Shown here: in pieces, positions 58,265-59,528 of the stretch
How positions within the stretch are numbered: position 1 is the first letter of the stretch
How the letters are laid out: each line of letters starts with the position of its first letter
NCBI RefSeq assembly: GCF_009914755.1
Contig: NC_060940.1
Source of the DNA: the human T2T-CHM13v2.0 reference genome, Homo sapiens
Direction: 5' to 3' (one strand)
DNA: 64,000 nucleotides
The notes under the pieces: generated by a model
What the model saw: only the letters and a program-made list of their open reading frames with translations
Databases searched by the model: none
Told to the model about the DNA's origin: nothing
Translations under genes and position numbers: made by a program

Positions 58265-59107
58265 CTTAGCTTGTCTTAGCCATGAGTGACGGGCTGCATG
58301 TGGCCCAGGACAGTTTTGAATGCAGTTCAACACAAATTTGTAAACTTTCTTAAAACATTAGGAGATTTTGGCCAGGTACAGTGGCTCATGCGTGTAATCC
58401 CAGCACTTTGGGAGGCTGAGGCGGGCAGATTACCTGAGGTCAGGAGTTCGAGACCACCCTGGCCAACATGGCAAAACCCCATCTCCACAAAAAATACAAA
58501 AATTTGCTGAGTGCATTGTCAGGCACCTGTACTCCCAGCTACTCAGGAGGCTGAGGCAGGAGAATCACTTGAACCTGAGAGGCAGAGGTTGCAGTGAGCC
58601 GAGAGCACGCCACTGCACTCCAGCCTGGGTGACAGAGTGAGACCCCATCTCAAAAACAAAACACCAAACAAAAACAAAAACAAAAAAAAATGGCTGGGCA
58701 CGGTGGCTCACACCTGTAATCCCAGCACTTTGGGAGGCCGAGGCAGGCAGATCGCCTGCCAGGAGTTCAAGGCCAGACTGGCCAACATGGTGAAACCTCA
58801 TCTCTACTAAAAATACAAAAATGAGTCGGGCATGGTGGCAGAGACCTGTAATCTCAGCTACTCGGGAGGCTGAGGGAGGAGAATGGCTTGAGCCCAGGAG
58901 CTGGAGGTTGCAGTGAGCCGAGATTGCACCACTGCACTCCAGCCTGGGCGACTGAGTGGAGCGGAACTCTGTCTCCAAAAAAAAAAAAAAAAAGAGTTTT
59001 TTTTTAGATCATCAGCTATTGTTAGTGTTAGTGTATGTTATGTGTGGCTCAAGACAACTTTGTTTCTTTTAATATAGGCAGGGAAGTGAAAAGATTGGAT
59101 ATCCCTG
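58265..59107 (-). mobile_element. MER30-like DNA transposon interrupted by two Alus (~58370-58690, ~58692-58993)
   Basis: …catcagctattgttagtgttagtgtatgttatgtgtggctcaagacaa…agattggatatccctg is the reverse of the MER30 5' end. Confidence 0.7.
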
Positions 59108-59345
59108 CTTTATACCAAGAAAGACAACACCCCACATTTGCAATGCCTAAAAACACTACCAGCCATCTGAAAAACATGAGACTTCTAACTTCTGTTCTTT
59201 TTTGTAGCAGTGGAATCCCACGGTGATATCTGAGGGATGTGGTTACCTTTTGGAGGAGGTTGACGGTTTCTAAGGATGATTCTTTCTGAGTGAAATATTG
59301 TCGGTGTCATTGACCTTTTCATTATTTCAACTATTATTATTCCAG

Positions 59346-59528
59346 GTTATCAATAGTCTGGCTGTCTATCGTCATCGTGAGACTGACTTTGGTGTAGGAG
59401 TTCGAGACCACCCTGGCCAACATGGCAAAACCCCATCTCCACAAAAATTGGATAATTTGATAATTATCATTATTGGGTTTCTGAGACGTTACACATTTAA
59501 CATTCTCTTCTGCACAAGTTGCCTTTGT
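59346..59528 (+). CDS. NPIPB10P: NPIP exon 2 ([61 protein letters not shown]), 183 nt
   Basis: tccAG acceptor and GTGAGT donor, phase 0/0, no stop; NPIP family signature VIN.L..HRHR.TDFG. Confidence 0.9.

What the first reader, a model, noticed from the sequence alone, without database searches (positions are those of the whole stretch)
58442..59470. Coding sequence in NPIP exon 2 is an exact 52-bp copy of one specific neighbouring intronic Alu
Seen: 59396-59447 (aggagttcgagaccaccctggccaacatggcaaaaccccatctccacaaaaa) is identical to 58442-58493 in the Alu ~950 bp upstream. The match includes positions that differ from typical Alu sequence (accAccc, ggcAaaa, ctcCac). It is followed by short filler (ttggataat/ttgataat and the palindrome tgataattatca), and has no poly(A) tail or TSD. 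It is in frame and encodes [17 protein letters not shown]. Recalled NPIPA exon 2 has GSPWL here (129 nt versus 183 nt). Inference: new protein sequence arose by locally templated repair synthesis (Pol theta/MMBIR-like) into a coding exon, not by retrotransposition or classical Alu exonisation, in a rapidly evolving hominid gene family. I do not know whether this origin has been reported.
Basis: partly seen in the sequence, partly recalled or inferred. Interest (0 to 1): 0.85.

Follow-up and report, generated by a model that had tools for sequence, protein, structure and literature searches.

The report
Exon patch copied from neighbouring Alu
Fifty-two bases inside exon 2 of one branch of the human NPIPB gene family are an exact copy of an Alu repeat lying about 950 bases upstream in the same gene; the Alu-derived insert and its translation were already published, but tracing it to this particular neighbouring repeat appears to be new.

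Summary
Window 59396-59447 equals 58442-58493, 52 of 52 bases. In the whole T2T-CHM13 genome the 52-mer has 23 exact hits. All 23 lie in NPIP/LCR16a copies on chr16: 15 in the intron-1 Alu and 8 in exon 2.

Of the 28 near-identical exon-2 copies, 8 carry the insert (183 nt) and 20 do not (129 nt). The 8 form a clade with 100% support. All 28 carry the donor Alu, so the donor is older than the insert.

Compared with the closest insert-less copy (chr16:75.80 Mb), the change is a complex indel. Seven bases are lost, one T is added, 52 bases are copied from 954 bp upstream, and 8 bases are copied from the flank. The net gain is 54 bases, in frame.

The insert has no poly(A), no target-site duplication and no splice sites of its own. 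Retrotransposition, classical exonisation and chance are therefore excluded. The pathway (Pol theta, MMBIR, or an RNA template) cannot be decided, and both junctions show no microhomology.

Martinez-Gomez et al. 2019 (PMC6924539) already reported the Alu-derived insert in exon 2 of NPIPB6/7/8/9/15, with a junction peptide. My searches found no paper naming the donor or this mode of origin. Interest is moderate.

The parts
58370..58689 (+). Donor Alu in NPIP intron 1. It is in sense orientation and is the first of two tandem Alus (the second lies at about 58691-58995).
   Evidence: Read directly. All 28 LCR16a copies have it at the same place. The four older paralogues at 85-87% identity lack it.
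58442..58493 (+). The 52-base template tract inside the donor Alu.
   Evidence: It is identical to 59396-59447. It is exact in 15 intronic copies genome-wide.
59346..59528 (+). NPIPB10P exon 2, 183 nt, with acceptor AG at 59344-59345 and donor GTGAGT at 59529-59534.
   Evidence: It is 129 nt in the 20 insert-less copies.
59395..59395 (+). A single T between the exon and the Alu copy, with no template in the exon or the donor. The copy at 28.63 Mb has C here, which matches the donor.
   Evidence: alignment.
59396..59447 (+). The 52-base copy of the Alu tract. It lies in frame and encodes part of [17 protein letters not shown].
   Evidence: It is present in 8 of 28 exon-2 copies.
59448..59457 (+). 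Ancestral exon sequence TTGGATAATT. It is not filler.
   Evidence: It is present in the insert-less copy at chr16:75.80 Mb, and TTGG is present in all 20 insert-less copies.
59458..59465 (+). Eight extra bases, TGATAATT. They are a 7-of-8 direct copy of GGATAATT (59450-59457) and an exact reverse complement of AATTATCA, which is present in the pre-insertion exon. Their placement is ambiguous because the site is palindromic. With the next bases they form the 12-nt palindrome 59458-59469.
59394..59395 (+). Site of the 7-base loss. GAAGTCC is present at this point in all 20 insert-less copies.
   Evidence: alignment. The outgroup paralogues have GAATTCC here.

Best explanation
A break or stalled fork inside exon 2 occurred in the common ancestor of the NPIPB6/7/8/9/10P/15 branch of LCR16a. 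It was healed by copying 52 bases from the sense-oriented Alu in intron 1 of the same duplicon, most simply the copy 954 bp upstream in cis.

The same site lost 7 bases (GAAGTCC), gained one untemplated T, and gained 8 bases copied from the palindromic flank. Together these give +54 bases. Four codons (GSPW) were replaced by 22 ([22 protein letters not shown]), immediately before the hydrophobic stretch of the exon.

Shown: the copy, its source family, the indel anatomy, its restriction to one clade, and that the donor is older. Inferred: that it was one event, that the template was DNA, that it was the cis copy, and which enzymes acted. The new exon was later carried along by further segmental duplication and is translated according to a published peptide.
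For: Source of the copy:
- The identity is exact over 52 bases and includes two bases found in 0 of 60 other window Alus.
- All 23 exact genome hits are in LCR16a copies. Eight occur as pairs 952-959 bp apart and 7 as single intronic hits in NPIPA-type copies.
- All 28 copies at 99% identity or more have the Alu, and only 8 have the insert.

Polarity and timing:
- The four older paralogues have neither the Alu nor the insert, so the insert-less state is ancestral.
- The insert-bearing copies form a clade with 100% bootstrap support. They differ by 0.14-1.0% among themselves and by 2.15-2.64% from all other copies over 8,296 ungapped columns.

One event rather than two:
- The two length changes are +46 and +8. 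Neither keeps the frame alone, but together they do.
- None of the 28 copies is an intermediate.

Not retrotransposition or splicing:
- There is no poly(A), no target-site duplication, and the Alu copy is truncated at both ends.
- The RefSeq gap 59404-59455 begins GA and ends AA, so it is an alignment gap and not an intron.

Translation:
- The junction peptide ETDFGVGVR is listed for NPIPB6 in Supplementary Table S1 of PMC6924539.
Against: - Both junctions have 0 bases of microhomology in register, so the usual mark of microhomology-mediated joining or template switching is missing.
- The only nearby match is a 7-base ACTTTGG. It lies 3 bases inside the exon flank and 30 bases before the copy start in the donor. 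It was found after the fact and is only nominally unusual (44 of 2,680 window 16-mers; 144 of 5,000 shuffles).
- A 52-base tract taken from about 1 kb away is longer and more distant than the flank-templated stretches I recall as typical for Pol theta (recalled, not checked in a paper here).
- The template could equally have been a paralogous LCR16a Alu, the sister chromatid, or intron RNA.
- That it was a single event is inferred only from the frame and the lack of intermediates in one human genome.
- No ape genome could be searched.
Confidence: 0.62

Rival explanations
1. The template was RNA. The break in exon 2 was repaired using RNA that carried the intron-1 Alu, either the gene's own pre-mRNA or a cDNA made from it. 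This is a non-classical, endonuclease-independent Alu insertion.
For: The Alu is in sense orientation within the intron, and the patch has the same orientation, as expected if the nascent transcript was the template. The anatomy fits the published description of non-classical Alu insertions: truncated at the 3' end, no poly(A), no target-site duplication, a small target deletion, and extra non-Alu bases (passages of PMC5402677 citing Srikanta 2009; anatomy).
Against: The patch carries the private bases of an old, mutated neighbouring Alu and not those of an active source element. An ordinary Alu transcript from elsewhere is therefore excluded, and only RNA from this locus would serve. Nothing in the sequence tells RNA from DNA. 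The 8-base flank copy needs a DNA template in any case.
Confidence: 0.15
2. There were two or more separate events. A fragment was inserted first (breaking the frame) and an 8-base duplication later restored the frame. Alternatively, a roughly 954-bp tandem duplication running from the Alu to the exon was later trimmed down to 52 bases.
For: +46 and +8 are each out of frame, and compensating indels do occur. The extra 8 bases lie 10 bases away from the patch and not at its edge. Exon 2 evolves very fast: 9 of 9 substitutions against the 75.80-Mb copy change an amino acid.
Against: None of the 28 copies in this genome shows an intermediate state. The reading requires a period as a frame-shifted gene followed by rescue. 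A single complex repair product needs fewer steps.
Confidence: 0.15
3. An unrelated Alu fragment entered the exon and was later made identical to the upstream Alu by gene conversion. Alternatively, the identity is chance among similar Alus.
For: Two unrelated Alus (chr11:117.09 Mb, chr12:51.35 Mb) differ from the 52-mer by only one base. Alu-Alu conversion is known to occur (established knowledge).
Against: There are 0 exact matches outside LCR16a. The single difference in those two Alus lies exactly at a base that the exon shares with its neighbour. The identity stops precisely at the patch borders. A 52-base target is short for conversion. Twenty insert-less copies and four outgroups show that no Alu remnant existed in the exon to be converted. 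The exact identity needs no special upkeep: by my own arithmetic, the branch lengths predict only about 1 to 2 changes in the two 52-mers across the 8 copies.
Confidence: 0.03

Closest known systems
[quoted passage not shown] 2019, PMC6924539)
   Same: It is the same feature. [quoted passage not shown] It lists the insert as frame-preserving and 'part of exon', with the peptide ETDFGVGVR.
   Different: The paper labels the fragment AluJb (72 nt, RepeatMasker). In the passages and table I read, it does not name a donor or a mechanism and speaks of 'insertion of Alu elements'. Added here: identity to the intron-1 Alu, the 7/1/52/8 anatomy, the count of 8 of 28 copies, and the proxy for the pre-insertion sequence.
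Non-classical (endonuclease-independent) Alu insertions at double-strand breaks (Srikanta et al. 2009, as described in PMC5402677)
   Same: Truncated Alu piece, no poly(A), no target-site duplication, small deletion of the target, extra non-Alu bases.
   Different: Those insertions are interpreted as retrotransposition-derived. Here the patch carries the private bases of the Alu 954 bp upstream, which points to a local template. Srikanta 2009 itself could not be read.
Templated insertions of polymerase-theta end joining, and template switching in MMBIR/FoSTeS
   Same: The inserted DNA matches nearby sequence in cis. It is combined with a small deletion, a stray base and a short copy of the flank.
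   Different: There is no microhomology at either junction. The tract is 52 bases long and was taken from about 1 kb away. The enzymes cannot be tested from sequence. My knowledge of typical tract lengths is recalled, and only the search listing of such papers was seen.
Partial AluY insertion in the last exon of NPIPB (Cantsilieris et al. 2020, PMC7419210; Bekpen et al. preprint 10.1101/116087)
   Same: This is another Alu fragment that rewrote the coding sequence of the same gene family in African apes (passages seen).
   Different: It is in a different exon, causes a frameshift that creates a new repeat motif, and is present in all NPIPB copies. The exon-2 patch is in frame and limited to one NPIPB branch. 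[quoted passage not shown] That may be this insert, but I could not check the figures.

Membership tests
Classical Alu retrotransposition (target-primed reverse transcription) | Intact 3' end with a poly(A) tail | tested here: not met
   The patch ends inside the Alu left arm at CACAAAAA, which is the donor's own internal sequence. The right arm and tail are absent.
Classical Alu retrotransposition (target-primed reverse transcription) | Target-site duplication flanking the insert | tested here: not met
   The flanks are GGTGT and TTGGAT. Seven target bases are deleted instead.
Classical Alu exonisation | An intronic Alu, usually antisense, becomes a new exon through its own splice sites | tested here: not met
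   The patch lies inside an older exon whose AG and GTGAGT sites are shared with the insert-less copies. It is in sense orientation.
Non-classical Alu insertion (endonuclease-independent) | Truncated, with no poly(A), no target-site duplication, a target deletion, and often extra non-Alu bases | tested here: met
   The criteria are taken from passages of PMC5402677.
Non-classical Alu insertion (endonuclease-independent) | Derived from Alu RNA or cDNA of a transcribed source element | not testable with these tools
   The patch equals an old neighbouring Alu. Only RNA from this locus would fit, and sequence cannot tell RNA from DNA.
Templated insertion by polymerase-theta end joining / MMBIR template switch | The insert is identical to sequence nearby on the same chromosome | tested here: met
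   52 of 52 bases match sequence 954 bp upstream. All 8 insert-bearing copies keep the pair at 952-959 bp.
Templated insertion by polymerase-theta end joining / MMBIR template switch | Microhomology at the switch points | tested here: not met
   There are 0 bases at both junctions in register. The only match is an out-of-register 7-mer, ACTTTGG, 30 bases before the copy start.
Templated insertion by polymerase-theta end joining / MMBIR template switch | Dependence on POLQ or on break-induced replication factors | not testable with these tools
   This needs an experiment.
Alu-Alu gene conversion | A homologous tract already present in the recipient | tested here: not met
   The 20 insert-less copies and the 4 outgroup paralogues have no Alu sequence at the site.

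The most novel reading that the evidence does not exclude
The template was the gene's own nascent pre-mRNA. A break in exon 2 of a transcribed NPIP copy was repaired by reverse-transcribing 52 bases of the intron-1 Alu RNA that lay next to it. Intron sequence would thus have been written into an exon in the germline, creating 18 new translated codons in one step. This would be a natural, fixed example of transcript-templated break repair giving rise to new protein sequence in a gene family under strong positive selection in African apes.
Probability: 0.12. Interest if true: 0.75.

Novelty: new member of a known kind. Interest (0 to 1): 0.4.

Why it matters
NPIP is among the fastest-evolving gene families of humans and African apes, and exon 2 is one of its positively selected exons (PMC7419210, passage seen). 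The analysis here indicates that 18 of the residues that set one NPIPB branch apart did not come from a jumping Alu. They came from a repair or replication error that copied a piece of the gene's own intron into the exon. That gives a dated, sequence-resolved example of repair synthesis creating translated coding sequence.

It also corrects the database label of the fragment (AluJb). And it supplies exact junction strings with which the event can be dated in ape assemblies.

The practical weight is modest. The insert itself and its translation were known, and templated insertions are a known class of mutation.

Tried and rejected
- Chance or common-Alu similarity is rejected by the genome counts and the window controls.
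- The RefSeq split of exon 2 (59403/59456) was considered as evidence that the patch is spliced out. It is rejected because the gap starts GA and ends AA, is 52 bases long, and fits an alignment to an insert-less parent.
- Microhomology at the junctions was looked for in registers 0 to 3 and with a local-alignment scan of the donor Alu. The windows overlapping the junction ranked 41st of 294, so there is no support.
- I looked for a cluster of other complex changes around the exon, as multi-switch replication errors can leave. Over 9 kb, only five clade-specific insertions (1, 1, 4, 11 and 54 bases) and two deletions (1 and 8 bases) were found, and none lies near exon 2 apart from the insert itself.
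- The 75.80-Mb copy was tested as sister of the insert clade. It is supported locally around exon 2 (15-16 differences per 446 bases, against 23-39 for four other copies) but not over the whole 9 kb (bootstrap 50-69 for the deep nodes). I use it only as a proxy for the pre-insertion exon.
- Earlier findings of this scan were not open to the session.
- Srikanta et al. 2009 is not held in the library.
- No ape genome is available in any tool, so the event could not be dated by species.

Full report
**1. The observation**

Window 58442-58493 and 59396-59447 are the same 52 bases, and the identity does not extend by a single base on either side. The first stretch lies in the left arm of a sense-oriented Alu (about 58370-58689). 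This is the first of two tandem Alus in NPIP intron 1. The second stretch lies inside exon 2 of NPIPB10P (59346-59528), which has acceptor AG and donor GTGAGT.

Sixty other Alu copies in the window align to the 52-mer with 12 or fewer mismatches, and the closest has 5. The 52-mer departs from their majority base at six positions. Two of these bases occur in 0 of 60.

**2. Genome-wide test**

The window's own genome (T2T-CHM13) could be searched.
- The 52-mer has 23 exact hits, all on chr16.
- Seven are single hits at 14.75-18.38 Mb.
- Sixteen form eight pairs 952-959 bp apart, at 28.63, 28.75, 28.93, 29.04, 29.32 (this window), 80.20, 80.31 and 80.43 Mb.
- With up to three mismatches there are 868 hits.
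- Thirteen hits have exactly one mismatch. Eleven are the same intronic Alu in further LCR16a copies (ten on chr16, one on chr18; confirmed by flanking anchors). Two are unrelated Alus, at chr11:117.09 Mb and chr12:51.35 Mb.

**3. Who has the insert**

A 146-base query from the intron just upstream of exon 2 finds 28 copies at 99% identity or more (27 on chr16, 1 on chr18). It also finds four older paralogues at 85-87%.

I extracted exon 2 from all 28. Eight are 183 nt and carry the patch. Twenty are 129 nt and read ...DFGGSPW... at that point. All 28 have the intronic Alu (0 to 2 mismatches in the 52-mer). The four older paralogues have neither the Alu nor the patch. The donor is therefore older than the insert, and the insert-less state is ancestral.

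Over 9 kb (8,296 ungapped columns), the eight insert-bearing copies differ by 0.14-1.0% from each other and by 2.15-2.64% from six representatives of the other lineages. With exon 2 removed, they form a clade with 100% bootstrap support.

As a yardstick I use the human-chimpanzee divergence of about 1.2% (recalled). On that scale the insertion falls between roughly twice and 0.8 times that divergence. This fits the published placement of the NPIPB expansions in African apes (PMC7419210, passages). No ape genome was available to test this.

**4. Anatomy**

The insert-less exon 2 most like the insert-bearing form is the copy at chr16:75.80 Mb. Around exon 2 it shows 15-16 differences per 446 bases, against 23-39 for four other copies.
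- It reads GGTG GAAGTCC TTGGATAATT ATCATT.
- The insert-bearing exon reads GGTG T [52-mer] TTGGATAATT TGATAATT ATCATT.

So seven bases were lost, one T was added that has no template, 52 bases were copied, and eight further bases appeared ten bases downstream.

The eight bases are a 7-of-8 direct copy of the preceding GGATAATT. They are also an exact reverse complement of AATTATCA, which the pre-insertion exon contains. The site is a 10-base palindrome (GATAATTATC) that became 12 bases.

The two length changes are +46 and +8. Neither alone keeps the frame, and together they add 54 bases, or 18 codons. GSPW becomes [22 protein letters not shown]. None of the 28 copies is an intermediate.

The copy at 28.63 Mb has C instead of the T at the junction. 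This extends identity with the donor to 53 bases and changes Val to Ala. Its position inside the 16p11.2 subclade suggests that the C is derived.

**5. Mechanism**

Several explanations are excluded.
- Classical retrotransposition is excluded. There is no poly(A), no target-site duplication, both ends are truncated, and there is a target deletion.
- Classical exonisation is excluded. The splice sites are those of the old exon.
- Alu-Alu conversion is excluded, because there was nothing in the exon to convert.
- A random or active Alu as source is excluded by the private bases.

What remains is synthesis templated by the LCR16a intron-1 Alu during repair or replication.

The small deletion, the stray base and the flank copy are what error-prone end joining or template switching leaves behind. 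But both junctions show no microhomology in register, so the sequence does not name the pathway.

A 7-base match (ACTTTGG, exon 59386-59392 and donor 58405-58411) ends 30 bases before the copy start. It is nominally uncommon (44 of 2,680 window 16-mers; 144 of 5,000 shuffles). However, it was found after the fact and belongs to a conserved part of every Alu.

Because 15 LCR16a copies share the exact 52-mer, the template could have been any of the following:
- the cis copy, which is the simplest reading;
- a sister chromatid;
- a paralogue, although the NPIPB3/4/5/11-13/chr18 lineage carries a G-to-A change in the tract and would not fit unless that change is younger than the insertion;
- RNA of the intron, which has the same orientation.

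The exact identity needs no special explanation. From the branch lengths, I estimate only about one to two substitutions expected in the two 52-mers across the eight copies (my arithmetic).

**6. What was known**

Martinez-Gomez et al. [quoted passage not shown] They list it as a frame-preserving insert, 'part of exon', AluJb, 72 nt. They give the PeptideAtlas peptide ETDFGVGVR, which crosses the left junction and matches the translation of this window.

Cantsilieris et al. 2020 (PMC7419210, passages) describe positive selection on exons 2, 4 and 6. [quoted passage not shown]

The Bekpen et al. preprint (10.1101/116087, passages) cloned two NPIPB forms that differ in exon 2 and the C-terminus and localise differently.

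None of the passages I read names the neighbouring Alu as the source. A full-text search for NPIP together with 'templated insertion' found 0 papers. Searches with NPIPB/Alu/exon 2 and morpheus/LCR16a/exon 2 found only the papers above. Figures and most supplements were not visible to me, so a mention there cannot be excluded.

**7. Verdict**

The core of the interpretation, a local copy rather than a transposition, is well supported. The named enzymes are not.

The feature itself is already published. The donor assignment, the indel anatomy and the count of 8 of 28 copies are incremental additions. I rate it a new, well-resolved member of a known kind of mutation, with moderate interest.

Noticed in passing
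G000 chr16:80.20, 80.31 and 80.43 Mb (L012-L014, L029, L036, L039): There are three insert-bearing NPIPB15-like copies spaced about 114.4 kb apart. They differ by only 0.16-0.28% over 9 kb, which points to a very recent three-unit tandem array in this genome.
   Followed up: partly
G000 chr16:15,116,473 and 15,120,866, minus strand (L015, L016): Two NPIPA-type units (intronic Alu plus exon 2) lie only 4,393 bp apart and share the same private base in the 52-mer. This looks like a small local duplication inside one LCR16a copy. The exon 2 of L016 ends in W instead of C.
   Followed up: no
window 59346-59528 against L024 (chr16:75.80 Mb): Outside the indel, exon 2 differs from the closest insert-less copy at 9 of 122 comparable bases, and all 9 change the amino acid. 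Outside exon 2 the difference is 215 of 8,704 bases. This agrees with the published positive selection on this exon.
   Followed up: partly
L008, chr16:28.63 Mb, the base equivalent to window 59395: This copy has C where the other seven insert-bearing copies have T. That gives a 53-base identity with the donor and Ala instead of Val, so the published peptide ETDFGVGVR would not come from this CHM13 copy.
   Followed up: no
L042-L045 (chr11:3.387 Mb, chr10:80.387 Mb, chr10:81.112 Mb, chr16:20.540 Mb): There are four older paralogues of the exon-2 segment and its upstream intron at 85-87% identity. They lack both the donor Alu and the insert. The site reads GAATTCCTTGGA there.
   Followed up: partly
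window 54968-55030, 59346-59528, 63161-63260, 63424-63568: The four annotated exons of the pseudogene NPIPB10P that lie in the window read as one open frame of 163 codons starting with M. The reason for its pseudogene status must lie downstream or in curation.
   Followed up: no
window 59404-59455: The RefSeq exon split of NPIPB10P leaves out 52 bases shifted 8 bases to the right of the true patch. The gap is bounded by GA and AA, so it is an alignment gap against an insert-less parent and not an intron.
   Followed up: yes
window 55655-55665 and about 55792: The only other indels of 8 bases or more specific to the insert-bearing clade in 9 kb are an 11-base insertion, CCCCTTCCCCT, and an 8-base deletion (GGTGCGGT in the other copies). 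Both lie just downstream of exon 1.
   Followed up: no
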